Shown: positions 2,949 through 33,839 of the stretch, piece by piece
How the letters are laid out: each line of letters begins with the position of its first letter
Numbering within the stretch: the first letter of the stretch is position 1
Assembly (NCBI RefSeq): GCF_014202825.1
Contig: NZ_JACHHP010000005.1
Location: forward strand, 11,818 to 75,817
DNA from: Chiayiivirga flava
GTDB taxonomy: Bacteria; Pseudomonadota; Gammaproteobacteria; Xanthomonadales; Xanthomonadaceae
DNA length: 64,000 nucleotides
Direction of reading: 5' to 3'
Notes under the pieces: generated by a model
What the model was told of the DNA's origin: nothing
Database searches by the model: none
What the model saw: only the letters and a program-made list of their open reading frames with translations
Made by a program: the position numbers and the translations under genes

Positions 2949-4037
2949 CTACACATTGAAGCGGAAGTGCAGCACGTCGCCTTCCTGCACGATGTATTCC
3001 TTGCCTTCGAGCCGCAGCCGGCCCGCTTCCTTGGCGCCGGCCTCGCCGCGGTACTTGATGTAATCGTCGTAGCCGATGGTTTCAGCGCGGATGAACCCCT
3101 TCTCGAAATCGGTGTGGATCACCGCGGCGGCCTGCGGGGCGGTGGCGCCTTTCTTCACCGTCCAGGCGCGCACTTCCTTCACGCCGGCGGTGAAATAGGT
3201 CTGCAGGCCGAGCAGCTTGTAGCCGGCGCGGATCACGCGATTGAGGCCCGGTTCGTCGAAGCCCATGTCGGCGAGGAACGCGTCGCGGTCGGCATCGTCG
3301 AGCTGCGACATTTCCTCTTCCATCGCCGCGCACACCGGCACCACTTCCGCGCCTTCCTCGATCGCGCGTGCGCGCACGCGGTCCAGGTGCGGGTTGTTCT
3401 CGAAGCCGTCGTCGTTGACGTTGGCCACGTACATCACGGGCTTGAGCGTGAGCAGGAACAGCTCGCGCAGCAGGCCCTTGTCGTCGGCGCTCAGGTCCAT
3501 CGAACGCGCGGGCTTGCCGGCATTCAGATGCTCGCGCACGCGCTTGAGCACCTCGGCGCGGACGATGGCGTCCTTGTCGCCGGTGCGGGCGGCGCGCTCG
3601 TAGCGGTTCAGCGCCTTCTCCACCGACTCGAGGTCGGCCAGCGCCAGTTCGGTGTCGATCGTCTCGATGTCCGCGATCGGATCGACCTTGTTGCTGACGT
3701 GGATCACGTCACCCTCGAAACAGCGCACCACGTGCGCGATGGCATCGGTTTCGCGGATATTGGCGAGGAACTTGTTGCCCAGGCCCTCGCCCTTGCTGGC
3801 ACCGGCCACGAGCCCGGCGATATCGACGAATTCCACGGCCGTGGGAATGATCTTCTGCGGCTTGACGATGTCGCCGAGCGCTGCAAGGCGCGGATCGGGC
3901 ACCGGCACCACGCCCACGTTCGGATCGATGGTGCAGAACGGGAAGTTGGCCGCCGCGATGCCGGCGCGGGTCAGCGCGTTGAAGAGGGTCGATTTGCCGA
4001 CGTTCGGCAGACCGACGATGCCGCATTTGATGCCCAT
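2949..4037 (-). CDS. ychF: Redox-regulated ATPase YchF (Obg-like GTPase family)
   Basis: 363 aa starting [23 protein letters not shown] with a P-loop. Ends in a TGS domain. The upstream part of the track ORF (ESRITNHESRI) is translation of a repeat and is not coding. Confidence 0.9.
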
Positions 4038-30024: not shown

Positions 30025-30263
30025 GATCACGACTTCTTCTGTTGGTGGATGAAGGAACACCGCGCGACGCGGGCACGCAGACGGATGGCTGCGGCGCCCG
30101 GACACGGGGCCGGCAAGGATAAACCACGCGCGTAAAAAAGACGTTGCAGCACCCGAAGTGACGAATGGCGCACGGCATTCGTCGCGCATGTGTGGGTTCG
30201 CGGGCGAAACAGGCACGACCGTCGCCCGCAATCGACCGCTCGTCTGCCGGTGCGCGAAAGTGT

Positions 30264-30292
30264 TTGCATTCTTCTTAACGAAACTTTAATTT
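30264..30292 (+). promoter_or_regulatory. Sigma70-like promoter in an AT-rich patch
   Basis: TTGCAT (30264-30269), a 17-nt spacer, then TAATTT (30287-30292). The local AT-rich stretch is gtgtttgcattcttcttaacgaaactttaatttgtg. Confidence 0.35.
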
Positions 30293-30493
30293 GTGCCGCC
30301 TCGCCGACCCTTCGGCGATGTCTCCACTCATTCCACAAGGCCGATCCATGTCCCGCTTCATCTTCGCCATCGCCAGCCCGCTCGACGCACCGGCCAGCCG
30401 CCGCGTCACGCGGACGACTGCACACGGCGCCATCACCACGGACTGATCTGCCCGCCACGCGGAGATCGGTCACCCGATCTCCGAGGCTGCACG

Positions 30494-30529
30494 AACGCCC
30501 TCGGACGCACATCCGGGGGCGTTTTTTTT
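30494..30529 (+). terminator. Rho-independent terminator
   Basis: AACGCCC-TCGGA-cgcaca-TCCG-G-GGGCGTT followed by T8 (30522-30529). This is a strong hairpin plus U-tract on the plus strand only. Confidence 0.65.
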
Positions 30530-30724
30530 GCGCGTTCGTCATGGAGCACAACACCACAATCGACGCGGGCGCACAGGCGACCGCGTGCAAGGAATCGGTG
30601 CCGCGACCCGGCATCGATGCATCGCATCAAGGAACGGCTCCCTGCGGCCCGGGTTTGTTGCCCGGCCGGTGCGCACGGCATTGCCGTCGCGTATGCCCGG
30701 AACCGGACACCGGTGCGGTGCAAG

Positions 30725-30793
30725 GCGGCGGTAGCTCAGCGGTGAGAGCACGGGCGTGTCCCGAGGTCGCCGGTTCGACTTCGGCCCGCCGCG
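30725..30793 (+). tRNA. tRNA-like element 1 with truncated anticodon arm (non-canonical; possible tRNA mimic or pseudo-tRNA)
   Basis: GCGGCGG-TA-GCTC-AGCGGTGA-GAGC-A-CGGG-CGTGT-CCCG-AGGTC-GCCGG-TTCGACT-TCGGC-CCGCCGC-G. The 7-bp acceptor pairs perfectly. D-arm and T-arm are canonical (GTAGCTCAG...GGTTCGA). The anticodon arm is only a 4-bp stem with a 5-nt loop. Length 69 nt, no CCA. Confidence 0.45.
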
Positions 30794-30865
30794 TTTGGAT
30801 AGCTCAGACGGGTAGAGCACAGAACGTTGATTCTGAAGTCGCGGGTTCGAATCCCGCTCCAAGAC
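30793..30865 (+). tRNA. tRNA-like element 2 with 6-nt anticodon loop (non-canonical)
   Basis: GTTTGGA-TA-GCTC-AGACGGGTA-GAGC-A-CAGAA-CGTTGA-TTCTG-AAGTC-GCGGG-TTCGAAT-CCCGC-TCCAAGA-C. The anticodon loop has 6 nt instead of 7 and there is a G1-A72 mismatch. Its first nucleotide is the discriminator base of element 1, so there is no spacer between the two. Confidence 0.45.
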
Positions 30866-31160
30866 ACATGACCTGTCACGTCATGACCACGGGACGCAAG
30901 TCCCTTCCACGGAAACGCCCCGCGCGGCGTTTCGTCATCCCGCCGCAGCGGCAACGCGGCGTGGTGTCGAGCGATGCAGCGGACCCATCGCCGGGTCTTC
31001 GCCTTCGCAGGGCGCGGGCCGGTCTGCAGCGTCCCGTGTGACCGCGCGGGCTGCGTTCCGGCCTCCGCCCCAACGCGCGCCTGGACTCCGCGACGTGCTT
31101 CGCCAGGGGCGCTTCCACCTATTCCGCGATGTGCGCCCGCGCATCGCAAACGCATCCAAC

Positions 31161-31350
31161 GCCCCTCTCCCGTGGGAGAGGGGTTGGGGAGAGGGTCTGG
31201 GACGAACAAAACGCCGGCAATCGCCTCGTGCCAGCAAGTCGCTGCTATTGCTTCCTTGAAATGGCAATGGCAACTCACGCAACACGACCGCAGCAGTGCA
31301 CGCCATTGCAACGCTTCGACCGAACCCTCTCCCACGGAGAGAGGGGCTCA
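31161..31350. repeat. Family-B REP inverted pair flanking a 125-bp spacer
   Basis: 31161-31196 is cccctctcccgtgggagaggggttggggagaggg. 31321-31350 is cgaaccctctcccacggagagaggggct. Confidence 0.65.
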
Positions 31351-31438
31351 ACGACATCCCCGCACGCGCGAATCGATCCGGCGCATGCGGCTTCAGCGCA
31401 AACGGATCGAACCACCAGAGCCACAAGGAGAACCCACC

Positions 31439-32563
31439 ATGTTCTGGACCAAGAGGGTCGTGATCGGCGACGGCGAGCGCGGCCTGGTGTATCGCAACAA
31501 GCAGTTCGAGGCCGTGCTCGGCCCGCGCGTGCACCGCATCGTCGACCCGTTCAACCGGGTCGTCGTGCTGACGCATTCGATCGCGAATCCCGAATACGCC
31601 GGCCGCGACATCGACACGCTGCGTGCCCGCCTCGGCGATGTGCGCTTCGACGAACTGTTCCTGCTCGTCGACCTGCGAGCCGACGAAGTCGGTCTGGTGC
31701 GTCAGCACGGCGTCATCGAGGACGTGCTCGCGCCGGGCACGCGCAAGATCTTCTGGCGCGGCGACGGCCGGTTGAGCGTCGAGCGCATGGTGCTGGACGA
31801 GGGCCTGCAACTGCGCGCGGACGTGATGCAGCGCCTGCGCCAGCTCGGCACGCTGTCGAAGGTGGCCGTGGCGGTGCACGTGCCGGCGGAGTCGACGGGC
31901 CTCGTGTTCATCGACGGCAAGCTGATGCGCTCGCTGGCGCCGGGCGCCTACGCCTTCTGGAACTTCCAGAAGAACGTGGTGGCCGAGGTCGTCGAGCAGC
32001 GCGTGCAGTCGATCGAGGTCTCGGGCCAGGAGTTGCTGACCCGCGACAAGGTCTCGCTGCGCGTGAACCTCGCCGCGTCGCTGCGCGTCGTCGATCCGGT
32101 GGCCGCGAAGACGCGCGTGGCGAAGTTCGTCGACCACGTCTACCGCGAACTGCAGTACGGCCTGCGCCGTGCCGTGGCCGCGAAGACGCTCGACGAACTG
32201 CTCGGCGACAAGGCCTCGCTCGACGCCGACATCTACGCCTACGTGCACGGCCGCGTCGGCGAGTTCGGCATCGACATGCTCGGTGTCGGCGTCAAGGACG
32301 TGATCCTGCCGGGCGAGATGAAGGAGATCCTCAACGGCGTGGTGCAGGCGGAGAAGTCGGCGCAGGCCAACGTCATCCGCCGTCGCGAGGAGGCGAACGC
32401 CACGCGTTCCCTGCTCAACACCGCGAAGCTGATCGAGGAGAGTCCGGTGCTGATGCGGCTGAAGGAACTGGAGGCGCTGGAAAAGGTCACCGAGAAGATC
32501 GACAAGCTCACCGTGTTCGGCGGCCTGGACGGCGTGCTGAAGCAGCTGGTGACGATGAAGTAG
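31439..32563 (+). CDS. SPFH/band 7 (slipin-like) domain protein with a 170-aa N-terminal extension
   Basis: ATG at 31439 with AAGGAG 8 nt upstream. The C-terminal half (TRDKVSLRVNLAASLRVVDPVAAK...VILPGEMKEILNGVVQAEKSAQANVIRRREEA) is a band-7 domain. No N-terminal TM helix. Confidence 0.8.
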   Translation: MFWTKRVVIGDGERGLVYRNKQFEAVLGPRVHRIVDPFNRVVVLTHSIANPEYAGRDIDTLRARLGDVRFDELFLLVDLRADEVGLVRQHGVIEDVLAPGTRKIFWRGDGRLSVERMVLDEGLQLRADVMQRLRQLGTLSKVAVAVHVPAESTGLVFIDGKLMRSLAPGAYAFWNFQKNVVAEVVEQRVQSIEVSGQELLTRDKVSLRVNLAASLRVVDPVAAKTRVAKFVDHVYRELQYGLRRAVAAKTLDELLGDKASLDADIYAYVHGRVGEFGIDMLGVGVKDVILPGEMKEILNGVVQAEKSAQANVIRRREEANATRSLLNTAKLIEESPVLMRLKELEALEKVTEKIDKLTVFGGLDGVLKQLVTMK

Positions 32564-32618: not shown

Positions 32619-33839
32619 ATGGACACGAACAACTACGAGTTGCTGCATGCGGAAGGTTCGCGCACACCGATCAAGGGCTGGGTGCGGGGCGTGCCGCTGG
32701 AAGCCGAAGCCCACCAGCAATTGCGCAACATCGCGGACATCCCGTTCGTGGGCCCGTGGGTGGCGGTGATGCCGGACGTGCATCTAGGCAAGGGTGCGAC
32801 CGTGGGCTCGGTGATCCCGACGCGCGGCGCGATCATCCCGGCCGCGGTCGGCGTCGACATCGGCTGCGGCATGGCGGCGGTGCGCACCACGCTGCGCGCG
32901 GACGACCTGCCGGACAGCCTCGCGCAGCTGCGTTCTAGCATCGAACGCGGCGTGCCGGTGGGCAATGGCCGCTTCGGCGAGCACCACAAGATTCCCGACA
33001 GCATCGAGACGCGTGTTGCGCAGTCCGGGCTGGTGCAGCGCCTCGATGCGATCAAGGCGAAGCATCGGAAGATCCGCACCGACAAGCTCGATCGCCAGAT
33101 CGGCACGCTCGGCGGCGGCAACCACTTCATCGAGCTCTGCCTCGACGAGAGCGATGCCGTGTGGGTGATGCTGCACTCGGGCTCGCGCGGGACGGGCAAC
33201 CTCATCGGCACGTATTTCATCGAACGTGCGCGCGAGGAACTCGGCCGGCGCGTGCTCGGTTTCCAACTGCCGGACAAGGACCTCGCGTTCTTCCTCGAGG
33301 GCGAGCCGCTGTTCGACGACTACGTCGAGGCGGTGTCGTGGGCGCAAGACTACGCGCGCCACAACCGCGAGGCGATGATGGCGCGCGTGCTGCACGACAT
33401 GCGCCAGCGCTTGCCGAAGTTCCAGCTCACGCAGATGGCGGTGAACTGCCACCACAACTACGTCAACCGCGAAACGCATGGTGGCGAATCGCTGCTCGTC
33501 ACGCGCAAGGGCGCGGTGAGTGCGCGTGAAGGCGAACTCGGCATGATTCCGGGCAGCATGGGCACGCGCAGCTACATCGTGCGTGGCCTCGGCAACGCGG
33601 ACAGCTTCCACAGCTGCAGCCACGGTGCCGGACGCGTGATGAGCCGCACGCGGGCGCGGCAGGAGATCACGCTGGCGCAGCATCGCGAGGCCACCGCGCA
33701 CTTGGAGTGCCGCAAGGATGCCTCGGTGGTCGACGAATCGCCGGCCGCGTACAAGCCGATCGAGGCGGTGATGGCGGCGCAGCAGGATCTGGTGGAGATC
33801 GTGCATACGCTGCGGCAAGTGGTGTGCATCAAGGGGTGA
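32619..33839 (+). CDS. rtcB: RNA-splicing ligase RtcB (3'-phosphate/5'-hydroxyl RNA ligase)
   Basis: 406 aa: MDTNNYELLHAEGSRTPIKGWVRGVPLEAEA...GGGNHFIELC...NCHHNYV...SCSHGAGR, with all the conserved metal and GMP-His motifs. No rtcA or rtcR is adjacent. Confidence 0.9.
   Translation: MDTNNYELLHAEGSRTPIKGWVRGVPLEAEAHQQLRNIADIPFVGPWVAVMPDVHLGKGATVGSVIPTRGAIIPAAVGVDIGCGMAAVRTTLRADDLPDSLAQLRSSIERGVPVGNGRFGEHHKIPDSIETRVAQSGLVQRLDAIKAKHRKIRTDKLDRQIGTLGGGNHFIELCLDESDAVWVMLHSGSRGTGNLIGTYFIERAREELGRRVLGFQLPDKDLAFFLEGEPLFDDYVEAVSWAQDYARHNREAMMARVLHDMRQRLPKFQLTQMAVNCHHNYVNRETHGGESLLVTRKGAVSAREGELGMIPGSMGTRSYIVRGLGNADSFHSCSHGAGRVMSRTRARQEITLAQHREATAHLECRKDASVVDESPAAYKPIEAVMAAQQDLVEIVHTLRQVVCIKG

What the first reader, a model, noticed from the sequence alone, without database searches (positions are those of the whole stretch)
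30725..30865. Two abutting tRNA-like cloverleaves with shortened anticodon arms (no spacer, no CCA)
Both elements have perfect or near-perfect 7-bp acceptor stems and canonical D-arms (GTAGCTCAG..GAGC) and T-arms (G-GGTTCGAnTCC-C). This part is unmistakably tRNA-like. Element 1 has only 13 nt (4-bp stem, 5-nt loop CGTGT) where the 17-nt anticodon arm should be. Element 2 has a 5-bp stem with a 6-nt loop (CGTTGA) and a G1-A72 mismatch. The discriminator G of element 1 is nucleotide 1 of element 2, so there is no inter-tRNA spacer for normal RNase P or 3' processing. The genome's bona fide tRNA-Gln encodes CCA; these do not. They could not decode. They look like tRNA mimics, decoys or degenerate pseudo-tRNAs rather than functional tRNAs. 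Bacterial Y RNAs (YrlA) are a known precedent for tRNA-mimicking ncRNAs encoded next to rtcB.
Basis: seen in the sequence. Interest (0 to 1): 0.8.

Follow-up and report, generated by a model that had tools for sequence, protein, structure and literature searches.

The report
tRNA-like pair in RtcB-operon RNA
The two abutting tRNA look-alikes are real, conserved and almost certainly non-decoding; they form the core of a much larger structured RNA at the head of a slipin–RtcB RNA-repair operon, a class predicted in 2016 ("band-7-associated tRNA") for which I found no experimental study.

Summary
Confirmed. ARAGORN and Rfam's tRNA model both call two abutting tRNA-like elements at 30725-30793 and 30793-30866, each with a deletion in the anticodon loop.

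They are not decaying pseudogenes. The pair lies upstream of a slipin (SPFH/Band-7) gene in 79 of 79 testable Lysobacterales loci, and RtcB follows in 74 of 80. Covariation supports both cloverleaves.

They are very unlikely to decode. Element 1 usually has a 3-5-nt, often GNRA, loop. Element 2 keeps a 7-nt loop in 73 of 80 genomes, but carries 28 different "anticodons" and only a 4-bp conserved acceptor stem. The window's 6-nt loop is a minority variant.

The feature is larger than reported. The pair sits inside about 530 nt of contiguous covarying RNA (about 30598-31124) that matches no Rfam family except tRNA.

The same design occurs with RtcR/sigma-54 in Photobacterium and, degraded, in Burkholderia, Citrobacter and a Firmicute.

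This matches the "b7a-tRNA" predicted by Burroughs and Aravind (2016), which I could cite only second-hand.

The most likely role is a tRNA-shaped RNA partner of the soluble slipin and/or RtcB, analogous to Y RNA with Ro. That role is inferred, not shown.

The parts
30264..30292 (+). Weak sigma-70-like promoter candidate (TTGCAT-N17-TAATTT) ahead of the small ORF
   Evidence: Read from the sequence. A conserved block in relatives has the consensus TTGCAA-N17-TAACGT. It does not pass the promoter scan's criteria, so it is tentative.
30348..30446 (+). Small ORF, 32 codons (MSRFIFAIASPLDAPASRRVTRTTAHGAITTD*); a possible leader peptide or small protein of the module
   Evidence: An ORF of mostly about 30-45 codons ends 63-76 nt before the terminator's 3' arm in 73 of the 75 related loci scanned. 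The peptide is only weakly conserved (MK.xFHIA..SR..RDAG..D). Genes further upstream differ between genera.
30460..30483 (+). Conserved hairpin CGGAGATCGG-TCAC-CCGATCTCCG between the small ORF and the terminator
   Evidence: Conserved at 0.74-0.86 column identity. It forms in all folds.
30493..30534 (+). Intrinsic-terminator-like hairpin with a T-run, conserved at the left edge of the module
   Evidence: Terminator scan and alignments. It forms in both the free and the ribosome-masked folds.
30598..30614 (+). Hairpin P1 of the leader RNA
   Evidence: Helix 1 of alignment A4: 5 of 6 pairs have compensatory changes.
30621..30719 (+). 5' multi-helix domain. Closing helix 30621-30628/30712-30719; inner helices 30635-30640/30700-30705 and 30645-30653/30661-30668; near-invariant motif CCGGUGCGC...GCGUAUGCC at 30669-30694
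   Evidence: 38 pairs over alignment A4, 25 compensatory, 96.6% paired against 84.4% in shuffles, 0 of 500 shuffles as high. The motif also appears by eye in Photobacterium and Subdoligranulum.
30725..30793 (+). tRNA-like element 1: 7-bp acceptor stem, D arm, T arm, and a truncated anticodon arm (13 nt instead of 17); no CCA
   Evidence: Family-wide loop lengths are 3 nt (8 genomes), 4 (46), 5 (7), 6 (5), 7 (13) and 12 (1). Covariation in all four stems.
30793..30866 (+). tRNA-like element 2: near-invariant D and T arms, a covarying anticodon stem, and a 6-nt loop here (7 nt in 73 of 80 relatives) with a free-varying triplet. Only TGGA/TCCA of the acceptor stem is conserved
30867..30885 (+). 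Hairpin CATGAC-CTGTCAC-GTCATG just 3' of element 2
   Evidence: Helix 1 of alignment A3: 4 of 4 pairs compensatory.
30891..30904 (+). GNRA-capped hairpin GGGAC-GCAA-GTCCC
   Evidence: Helix 2 of A3: variants GGAAC-GAAA-GTTCC and GGGGC-TTCG-GCCCC. A similar hairpin follows element 2 in Burkholderia.
30911..31116 (+). 3' multi-branch domain closed by an 11-bp long-range helix (30911-30921 with 31106-31116)
   Evidence: 52 pairs over alignment A3, 45 compensatory, 91.8% paired against 78.2% in shuffles, 0 of 500 as high. In the closing helix, 9 of 11 pairs are compensatory.
31117..31124 (+). Pyrimidine/U-rich tail after the closing helix (consensus CCACCUUUUU); possible 3' end or second terminator
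   Evidence: Conservation stops here. See the alignment. Any terminator function is inferred.
31125..31360 (+). Window-specific insert containing REP-like palindromes; not part of the conserved module
   Evidence: Mostly gaps in relatives over most of its length. The palindrome is dispersed: 9 copies in the window against 0.05 expected.
31365..31438 (+). Conserved slipin 5' UTR with a hairpin and an AAGGAG ribosome-binding site
31439..32563 (+). Slipin (SPFH/Band-7) gene, 374 aa, with no membrane anchor visible
   Evidence: Pfam Band_7 at residues 148-319, E = 1.3e-24. 100% identical to the Chiayiivirga flava slipin. Foldseek matches stomatin, HflK/C and prohibitin cages.
32619..33839 (+). RtcB RNA ligase gene, 406 aa
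   Evidence: Pfam RtcB, E = 1.7e-123. It follows the slipin gene in 74 of 80 loci.

Best explanation
The two cloverleaves are tRNA-shaped modules that do not decode. They form the core of a long structured non-coding RNA, about 530 nt here and larger in most relatives, encoded at the head of a slipin(SPFH)-RtcB RNA-repair operon. [quoted passage not shown]

Shown:
- The pair and its flanking domains are conserved and covary.
- They travel with the slipin gene, and usually with RtcB, through changing genomic neighbourhoods.
- The D and T arms of element 2 are near-invariant, which implies an intact tRNA elbow.
- The anticodon ends are either sealed (element 1, a short and often GNRA loop) or free to vary in sequence while keeping loop geometry (element 2: 7 nt, Y32, U33, A37).

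Inferred:
- The RNA is transcribed with or just ahead of the operon.
- It assembles with the soluble, probably oligomeric, slipin and/or with RtcB.
- It acts as an RNA cofactor or scaffold for repair of broken tRNA or rRNA, the way Y RNA partners Ro60 in rsr-yrlA-rtcBA operons.
- The tRNA shape serves as the handle recognised by tRNA-handling proteins.
For: - Identity and reality of the pair.
- Operon context. Flanking genes are not conserved, so the RNA, slipin and RtcB form the unit.
- Larger structured RNA.
- The same RNA-slipin-repair-enzyme association in four distant loci (Burkholderia, Citrobacter, Photobacterium, Subdoligranulum), three of them downstream of rtcR with a sigma-54-like TGGCAC motif. 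Photobacterium gives a full-length covariance-model hit of 115.8 bits.
- Non-decoding.
- The slipin has the fold of cage-forming SPFH proteins and no anchor segment was apparent on inspection of the sequence (not tested with a predictor).
- Prior prediction of a Band-7 + tRNA-like RNA + RtcB system with proposed redundancy to Ro/YrlA: the Wolin-lab preprint 10.1101/312249, citing Burroughs and Aravind 2016.
Against: - There are no expression, end-mapping or binding data. Nothing here shows that the RNA binds slipin or RtcB.
- The RNA lies upstream of the genes in the same orientation, which fits a cis-regulatory leader equally well.
- A strong terminator-like hairpin lies upstream of it and a helix plus U-tract lies downstream, so the transcript boundaries are unknown.
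- Three loci (L030, L054, L056) keep the RNA and slipin but have no RtcB within 4 kb.
- In Citrobacter and Subdoligranulum the cloverleaves are reduced to T-arm remnants. The full tRNA shape is therefore not indispensable.
- The N-terminal domain of the slipin gave no RNA-binding signature.
Confidence: 0.5

Rival explanations
1. Cis-acting sensor leader. The long structured 5' region, with its tRNA-like modules, controls read-through into slipin-rtcB. Cleavage, nicking or religation of the tRNA-like modules, or binding of a tRNA-handling factor, would remodel the downstream domain whose closing helix plus U-tract acts as a terminator. In Lysobacterales, which lack RtcR, an upstream small ORF plus terminator would add a layer that senses translation.
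For: - The RNA always lies upstream of and on the same strand as slipin-rtcB.
- No RtcR homologue is detected in the window or within 4 kb in the 80 loci, while distant relatives place the RNA behind rtcR and a sigma-54-like TGGCAC motif.
- A terminator-like hairpin lies upstream, and a helix plus U-tract lies at the 3' end of the conserved block.
- A small ORF sits at a fixed distance from the terminator in 73 of 75 loci scanned, with partly interchangeable segments (S1 resembles S3).
Against: - Folding does not support a switch. The hairpin plus terminator is the minimum-energy fold both with and without ribosome masking, in 10 of 10 genomes tested.
- About 0.5-0.8 kb of covarying multi-domain RNA is far more than known attenuators need.
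- The window tolerates a 240-nt repeat insertion between the RNA and the slipin 5' UTR, which argues against tight structural coupling to the start codon.
- Precedent: yrlA and yrlB in the rsr-rtcBA operon are trans-acting RNAs although they are co-transcribed.
Confidence: 0.25
2. Decoy or bait for tRNA-targeting toxins. Element 2 presents a genuine-looking anticodon stem-loop that soaks up or reports anticodon nucleases, and the co-encoded RtcB reseals it. The loop sequence diversifies in an arms race.
For: - Element 2 keeps the geometry of a tRNA anticodon loop (7 nt in 73 of 80; Y32 90%, U33 77%, A37 93%), yet has 28 different triplets.
- In the 25 closest genome pairs the triplet is 50% identical, against 87.8% at four-fold sites of slipin and 99.2% in element 2's other stems.
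- Multi-base loop replacements with an unchanged stem occur in at least 9 independent close clusters.
- RtcB's established activity is sealing 2',3'-cyclic-phosphate/5'-OH breaks. This is background knowledge, as summarised in the paper read.
Against: - Fast change is also what a total lack of constraint predicts. Four-fold sites in a genome with 88% GC3 are not neutral, so the comparison cannot prove positive selection.
- Element 1, and element 2 in Burkholderia, carry sealed GNRA loops that cannot mimic an anticodon.
- A single-copy RNA is a poor sponge against abundant cellular tRNAs.
- It does not explain the 5' and 3' domains.
Confidence: 0.12
3. Unusual but functional decoding tRNAs, for example frameshift or suppressor tRNAs with odd loops.
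For: - Both pass Rfam's tRNA gathering score.
- In most relatives element 2 has a regular 7-nt loop, and ARAGORN assigns it ordinary anticodons.
- Most relatives have CCA right after element 1.
Against: - The anticodon is not conserved among orthologues.
- Element 2 has only a 4-bp conserved acceptor stem and no CCA.
- Element 1 has 3-5-nt loops in 61 of 80 genomes.
- The elements abut with 0 or 1 nt shared, leaving no spacer.
- They are always tied to slipin-rtcB and never sit in tRNA operons.
Confidence: 0.02
4. Decaying tRNA pseudogenes, or a remnant of a tRNA-gene integration site.
For: - Irregular loops, no CCA, and a mismatch at 1-72 in element 2 in this genome.
- The module sits in different neighbourhoods in different genera.
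Against: - Present in 79 of 79 testable loci.
- Element 2's stems are 98.5-99.3% identical across the order.
- Compensatory changes in 19 of 36 pairs.
- Full-length match in Photobacterium at 39% slipin identity.
- No integrase turned up among the adjacent genes that were scanned with Pfam.
Confidence: 0.01

Closest known systems
[quoted passage not shown]
   Same: A predicted ncRNA that strongly resembles a tRNA, encoded next to a Band-7/SPFH protein and RtcB. It was proposed as a functional counterpart of YrlA with Ro. The window has exactly this gene set.
   Different: I could not read the primary paper, so I do not know whether it describes the following:
- the tandem arrangement;
- the sealed loop of element 1;
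- the 4-bp acceptor stem of element 2;
- the hypervariable loop;
- the flanking 5' and 3' structured domains.

In Lysobacterales the system lacks RtcR and has a small ORF plus terminator upstream instead.
YrlA (Y RNA-like, Rfam RF02553) of rsr-yrlBA-rtcBA operons
   Same: A tRNA-mimicking ncRNA encoded in an RtcB repair operon. The T and D arm elbow is conserved, and the RNA is attached to further RNA that binds a protein partner.
   Different: - Rfam score is 27.7 bits here, and 33.6 in L066, against a gathering score of 69.
- No Ro/Rsr gene is among the adjacent genes.
- YrlA has one tRNA-like module joined to a Ro-binding stem. This RNA has two modules plus multi-helix domains totalling about 0.5-0.8 kb.
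Canonical bacterial tRNA (Rfam RF00005)
   Same: Cloverleaf with D-arm and T-arm consensus, including GG in the D loop and GGTTCGAnTCC in the T arm. Both elements score above the gathering threshold.
   Different: - Non-canonical anticodon loops.
- No anticodon conservation among orthologues.
- A 4-bp conserved acceptor stem in element 2.
- No CCA encoded in the window.
- No spacer between the two elements.
Large ornate bacterial ncRNAs (OLE, GOLLD, ROOL, HEARO, raiA classes)
   Same: Several hundred nucleotides long, with many covarying helices and long-range closing helices. GOLLD and ROOL loci are often near tRNAs; this point rests on my own knowledge.
   Different: No Rfam match to any of them. 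The gene association (slipin, RtcB, RlaP, RtcR) and the taxa are different.

Membership tests
Canonical tRNA (RF00005) | Scores at or above Rfam's gathering threshold with a cloverleaf alignment | tested here: met
   40.6 and 46.7 bits against a threshold of 29.
Canonical tRNA (RF00005) | 7-nt anticodon loop on a 5-bp stem | tested here: not met
   In the window, element 1 has a 4-bp stem with a 5-nt loop and element 2 has a 6-nt loop. Family-wide, element 1 has a loop of 5 nt or less in 61 of 80 genomes.
Canonical tRNA (RF00005) | Anticodon conserved among orthologous genes | tested here: not met
   28 different triplets among the 73 orthologues with 7-nt loops.
Canonical tRNA (RF00005) | 7-bp acceptor stem followed by a discriminator base and CCA (encoded or added) | tested here: not met
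   Element 2 conserves only TGGA/TCCA, and Rfam hits in relatives span model positions 4-67. No CCA follows either element in the window, whereas tRNA-Gln has it. Post-transcriptional CCA addition cannot be tested here.
b7a-tRNA (Burroughs and Aravind 2016) | tRNA-like ncRNA encoded adjacent to a Band-7/SPFH gene in an RtcB-type RNA-repair operon | tested here: met
   Pair at 30725-30866, slipin at 31439-32563, RtcB at 32619-33839, all on the + strand. The linkage holds in 79 of 79 (pair) and 74 of 80 (RtcB) related loci and in distant taxa.
b7a-tRNA (Burroughs and Aravind 2016) | Agreement with the sequence and structure model given in the original description | not testable with these tools
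   The primary paper is not held, and no Rfam model exists for it.
YrlA / bacterial Y RNA (RF02553) | Reaches Rfam's gathering score | tested here: not met
   27.7 bits against 69; 33.6 bits in L066.
YrlA / bacterial Y RNA (RF02553) | Encoded next to rsr (Ro60/TROVE) | tested here: not met
   The neighbours are a YscW-like lipoprotein, slipin, RtcB and TamB. No TROVE hit appeared among the adjacent genes scanned. The rest of the window was not scanned for TROVE.
Leader-peptide transcription attenuator | Small translated ORF followed by mutually exclusive antiterminator and terminator hairpins | tested here: inconclusive
   The ORF and terminator are conserved at a fixed spacing, and some complementary alternative segments exist. 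However, the minimum-energy folds keep the terminator in both states.
Known large structured RNAs in Rfam 15 (OLE, GOLLD, ROOL, HEARO and others) | Covariance-model match | tested here: not met
   No hit other than tRNA at the gathering threshold in the window or in 12 related loci. Nothing relevant appears at E up to 1-10 over the leader.

The most novel reading that the evidence does not exclude
The tandem tRNA-like pair is the core of an undescribed class of large (about 0.5-0.9 kb), multi-domain structured RNA found from Gammaproteobacteria to Firmicutes. It would assemble with a soluble SPFH/stomatin-type cage and RtcB (and/or RlaP) into a Ro/Y-RNA-like or vault-like RNA-repair particle. 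Element 2's free-varying anticodon loop would serve as the bait or sensor for anticodon-loop damage.
Probability: 0.25. Interest if true: 0.85.

Novelty: new member of a known kind. Interest (0 to 1): 0.58.

Why it matters
**Open question.** What bacterial RtcB repairs, and how it finds its substrates, is still unsettled. Ro with Y RNA is the only RNA cofactor system studied in these operons.

**What this RNA adds.** The slipin-linked RNA would be a second, independent case of a tRNA-shaped RNA recruited to an RNA-repair operon. It pairs that RNA with an SPFH protein, a family usually thought of as a membrane scaffold.

**What this analysis provides for experiments.**
- A defined anatomy: two modules with an intact elbow, one sealed and one open anticodon end, and flanking domains with a motif shared across phyla.
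- Alignments ready for building models.
- Tractable hosts to try. Photobacterium and Burkholderia carry the RNA. P. aeruginosa has the slipin (PA4582 / PA14_60630) inside its rtc locus, but I did not examine its upstream region.

**Practical point.** Genome annotation is likely to mislabel these elements as tRNAs. ARAGORN assigns them arbitrary amino acids that change from genome to genome.

Tried and rejected
- **Primary paper.** I tried to read Burroughs and Aravind 2016 by DOI and by PMC id. It is not held, so the prior description is cited second-hand.
- **Thermodynamic significance.** The pair's folding energy is not significant (z = -0.66), so I relied on covariance models and covariation instead.
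- **Attenuator switch.** For the small ORF plus terminator, the minimum-energy folds keep the terminator both with and without ribosome masking. I kept this only as a hypothesis.
- **RtcR or sigma-54 control in this genome.** No RtcR homologue is detected in the 64-kb window or in the 80 loci. The GCGCAC...TTGC stretch upstream of element 1 has the wrong spacing and lies inside a covarying helix.
- **Conserved synteny.** The window's flanking genes occur in none of the 80 loci, and flanks differ among genera.
- **Intramolecular partner for the variable loops.** I looked for a kissing-loop or pseudoknot site. No complementary site stands clearly above the shuffled control; the one top bin is probably self-complementary TTAA inside the loop itself, which I did not verify.
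- **Phage-borne copies.** None was found in viral contigs (limited sensitivity). No near-identical DNA exists in complete E. coli genomes for the Citrobacter version.
- **Slipin N-terminal domain.** No Pfam family matches beyond a faint Band_7 signal. The structure search returned only SPFH cages, driven by the C-terminal part.
- **Coding potential.** Pfam found nothing in the long overlapping ORF 30190-31041, and no ORF across the RNA region passes the GC3 filter apart from the N-terminally over-extended slipin ORF 30974-32563.
Full report
**Observation.**
- ARAGORN calls two genes that share nucleotide 30793: 30725-30793 and 30793-30865, the second with an uninterpretable 2-nt "anticodon".
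- Rfam's tRNA model matches both above its gathering score, at 40.6 and 46.7 bits against 29. Both alignments show deletions in the anticodon loop.
- By eye, element 1 has a perfect 7-bp acceptor stem, standard D and T arms, and CGGG-CGTGT-CCCG where the anticodon arm should be.
- Element 2 has the stem-loop CAGAA-CGTTGA-TTCTG and an imperfect acceptor stem.
- Neither is followed by CCA, whereas the window's genuine tRNA-Gln encodes it.
- The folding energy of the pair is not exceptional (z = -0.66). The case that this is more than chance rests on model scores and comparative data.

**Context.** The genome is Chiayiivirga flava; the slipin protein is 100% identical to the NCBI entry. Third-position GC and Pfam separate real genes from the many spurious ORFs of this 68%-GC DNA.
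- On the same strand as the pair, and downstream of it, lie a 374-aa slipin (SPFH/Band-7) gene at 31439-32563 and an RtcB RNA ligase gene at 32619-33839.
- The neighbours beyond are unrelated: a divergent YscW-like lipoprotein and cytochrome oxidase genes on one side, convergent TamB/TamA on the other.

[quoted passage not shown] It says the RNA had not been validated experimentally and was proposed to be functionally redundant with YrlA.
- The primary paper is not held.
- Further searches found no experimental follow-up.
- A 2026 paper notes that the P. aeruginosa slipin PA14_60630 lies inside the rtc locus.

**Conservation of the pair.** A scan of one genome per species returned 80 loci, almost all assigned to Lysobacterales, encoding slipins 68-79% identical to the window's.
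- A profile search finds the full-length tandem pair on the slipin strand in 79 of them. The exception has only 63 nt of upstream DNA.
- RtcB follows the slipin gene in 74 of 80.
- The window's flanking genes occur in none of these loci, and flanks differ between genera. The conserved unit is therefore the non-coding region plus slipin plus RtcB.
- ARAGORN's paired calls overlap by 1-2 nt or touch in 36 of 40 cases, so the abutment is conserved.
- RNAalifold recovers two cloverleaves from the 80 sequences. The pair counts pass both controls: 98.0% paired against 91.1% in shuffles, 19 of 36 pairs with compensatory change, 0 of 500 shuffles as high, and 33-46% paired in slid registers.

**The anticodon arms.**

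| Element | Loop length across 80 genomes | Other features |
|---|---|---|
| Element 1 | 3 nt (8), 4 (46), 5 (7), 6 (5), 7 (13), 12 (1) | The 4-nt loops are often GNRA (GCAA 13, GAAA 7, GCGA 3); the Dyella group keeps a 7-nt loop |
| Element 2 | 7 nt in 73, 6 nt in 7 including the window | Y32 90%, U33 77%, A37 93%; 28 different triplets |

- The shortened arm is therefore a family trait of element 1 only.
- Only TGGA/TCCA of element 2's acceptor stem is conserved, and Rfam hits in relatives cover model positions 4-67.
- Most relatives have CCAC between element 1's acceptor strand and TGGA, readable as an encoded CCA after element 1. The window has CGTT there.
- In the 25 closest genome pairs, four-fold sites of slipin are 87.8% identical, element 2's structural stems 99.2%, its anticodon stem 83.6% and its triplet 50%.
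- Loop differences, often at several positions with an unchanged stem, occur in at least nine independent clusters of close relatives.
- This rules out decoding and rules out decay. It does not separate diversifying selection from absence of constraint.
- No complementary co-varying site for the loops was found in the leader.

**The feature is larger than reported.** Column conservation runs from about 30493 to 31124, then drops over a window-specific insert, then resumes in the slipin 5' UTR.
- The 3' portion (30862-31124) folds into hairpins and a multi-branch domain closed by an 11-bp helix (30911-30921 with 31106-31116). It has 52 pairs, 45 compensatory, 91.8% paired against 78.2%, and 0 of 500 shuffles as high.
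- The 140 nt on the 5' side (30583-30731) form another multi-helix domain whose closing helix ends 5 nt before element 1. It has 38 pairs, 25 compensatory, 96.6% against 84.4%, and 0 of 500 as high.
- Most relatives carry a further domain of about 170 nt, closed by GAAGCATCC...GGATGCTTC, that the window lacks. I saw this in the alignment but did not test it formally.
- Nothing but tRNA matches in Rfam 15.
- The insert at 31125-31360 contains a dispersed REP-like palindrome, with 9 copies in the window against 0.05 expected.

**Upstream components.** Left of the structured RNA lies a terminator-like hairpin with a T-run (30493-30534). It is preceded by a conserved hairpin and a small ORF (30348-30446 in the window).
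- An ORF, mostly of about 30-45 codons, ends 63-76 nt before the terminator's 3' arm in 73 of the 75 related loci scanned. The peptide is only weakly conserved.
- A weak promoter-like motif precedes it.
- The arrangement suggests a leader-peptide attenuator. Folding keeps the terminator in both the free and the masked states, so this remains a hypothesis.

**Distant relatives.** Full-length slipin homologues on chromids and plasmids gave four more loci.

| Locus | Organism | Layout |
|---|---|---|
| L081 | Burkholderia | rtcR, sigma-54-like promoter, RNA, slipin, RtcB, RlaP |
| L082 | Citrobacter | rtcR, promoter, RNA, slipin, RlaP |
| L083 | Photobacterium | rtcR, promoter, RNA, slipin, RtcB |
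| L084 | Subdoligranulum (Firmicute) | RNA, slipin, RtcB, RlaP |

A covariance model of the pair scores as follows:
- Photobacterium: 115.8 bits over its full length, with the same division of labour. Element 1 has a 7-bp acceptor stem and a 6-nt loop; element 2 has a 4-bp acceptor stem and a 7-nt loop.
- Burkholderia: 61.9 bits. Element 2 is intact with a GAAA loop, and element 1 has lost its D and anticodon arms.
- Citrobacter and Subdoligranulum: only T-arm remnants.
- Genuine tRNAs: about 41 bits, on one half of the model only.

The near-invariant motif CCGGUGCGC...GCGUAUGCC, 5' of the modules, is also visible in Photobacterium and Subdoligranulum.

**The protein partner.** No hydrophobic anchor is apparent in the slipin sequence on inspection (no transmembrane predictor was run).
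- Residues 148-374 match stomatin by sequence.
- An AlphaFold model (mean pLDDT 71) matches the cage- and ring-forming SPFH proteins stomatin, HflK/C, prohibitin and flotillin.
- The beta-rich N-terminal 147 residues are unassigned.

**Interpretation.**
- Firm: these are conserved, structured, tRNA-shaped modules that very probably do not decode. They sit inside a large ncRNA genetically tied to slipin and RNA-repair enzymes, which matches the b7a-tRNA class.
- Inferred (about 0.5): the RNA is the partner of the soluble slipin oligomer and/or RtcB, by analogy with Ro and Y RNA.
- Rivals: a cis-acting damage-sensing leader (0.25) and a bait for anticodon nucleases (0.12). Functional tRNAs and pseudogenes are effectively excluded.

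**Novelty.** The kind was predicted in 2016, so the finding as stated is a new member of a known but unvalidated kind. The large flanking domains, the asymmetric two-module design, the hypervariable loop and the small-ORF/terminator replacement of RtcR may be new. I cannot verify that without the primary paper.

Noticed in passing
window 30348-30534: A small ORF (32 codons here, mostly about 30-45 in relatives), a conserved hairpin and a strong terminator-like hairpin lie immediately upstream of the structured RNA. They keep a fixed spacing in 73 of 75 related loci scanned. This may be a leader-peptide attenuator that replaces RtcR/sigma-54 control in Lysobacterales, but folding did not support a switch.
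   Followed up: partly
between window 30534 and 30585; for example L066 about 3150-3350: Most relatives carry an extra structured domain of about 170 nt, closed by GAAGCATCC...GGATGCTTC, that Chiayiivirga, L059 and L032 lack. The window therefore holds a reduced version of the leader.
   Followed up: partly
window 30669-30694; L083 about 3634-3665; L084 about 3603-3637: The near-invariant motif CCGGUGCGC-(hairpin)-GCGUAUGCC lies 5' of the tRNA-like modules. It is shared by Lysobacterales, Photobacterium and the Firmicute Subdoligranulum, and is a candidate protein-binding site.
   Followed up: partly
window 31125-31360, also 7830, 8027, 8123, 28868, 29038, 33906, 34068 and 51437: A dispersed REP-like palindrome (CCTCTCCC-NNN-GGGAGAGG) occurs 9 times in the window against 0.05 expected. 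Copies inserted between the structured RNA and the slipin 5' UTR account for the unusually long spacer in this genome.
   Followed up: partly
L030, L054, L056; L041; L044, L070, L076: Three loci keep the RNA and slipin but have no RtcB within 4 kb downstream. L041 has the pair only about 80 nt from the slipin start, so it lacks the 3' domain. Three Lysobacter loci have an extra gene of about 300 aa, with no Pfam match, between slipin and RtcB.
   Followed up: no
alignment A2 columns 79-92 (junction of the two elements): About 60 of 80 relatives have CCAC between element 1's acceptor strand and element 2's TGGA, which reads as an encoded CCA after element 1. The window has CGTT instead, so the CCA is not universal.
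   Followed up: partly
window 31439-31879 (slipin residues 1-147): Where stomatins have a membrane anchor, this slipin has a beta-rich N-terminal domain (pLDDT about 80). It matches no family beyond a faint Band_7 signal, and it could be where the RNA binds.
   Followed up: partly
L001-L080, tRNA-like pair: ARAGORN names these elements as tRNAs for at least 20 different specificities, depending on the genome (Met, Asn, Lys, Leu, Gly, Ile, His, Pro, SeC and others). Automatic annotation will probably mislabel them.
   Followed up: yes
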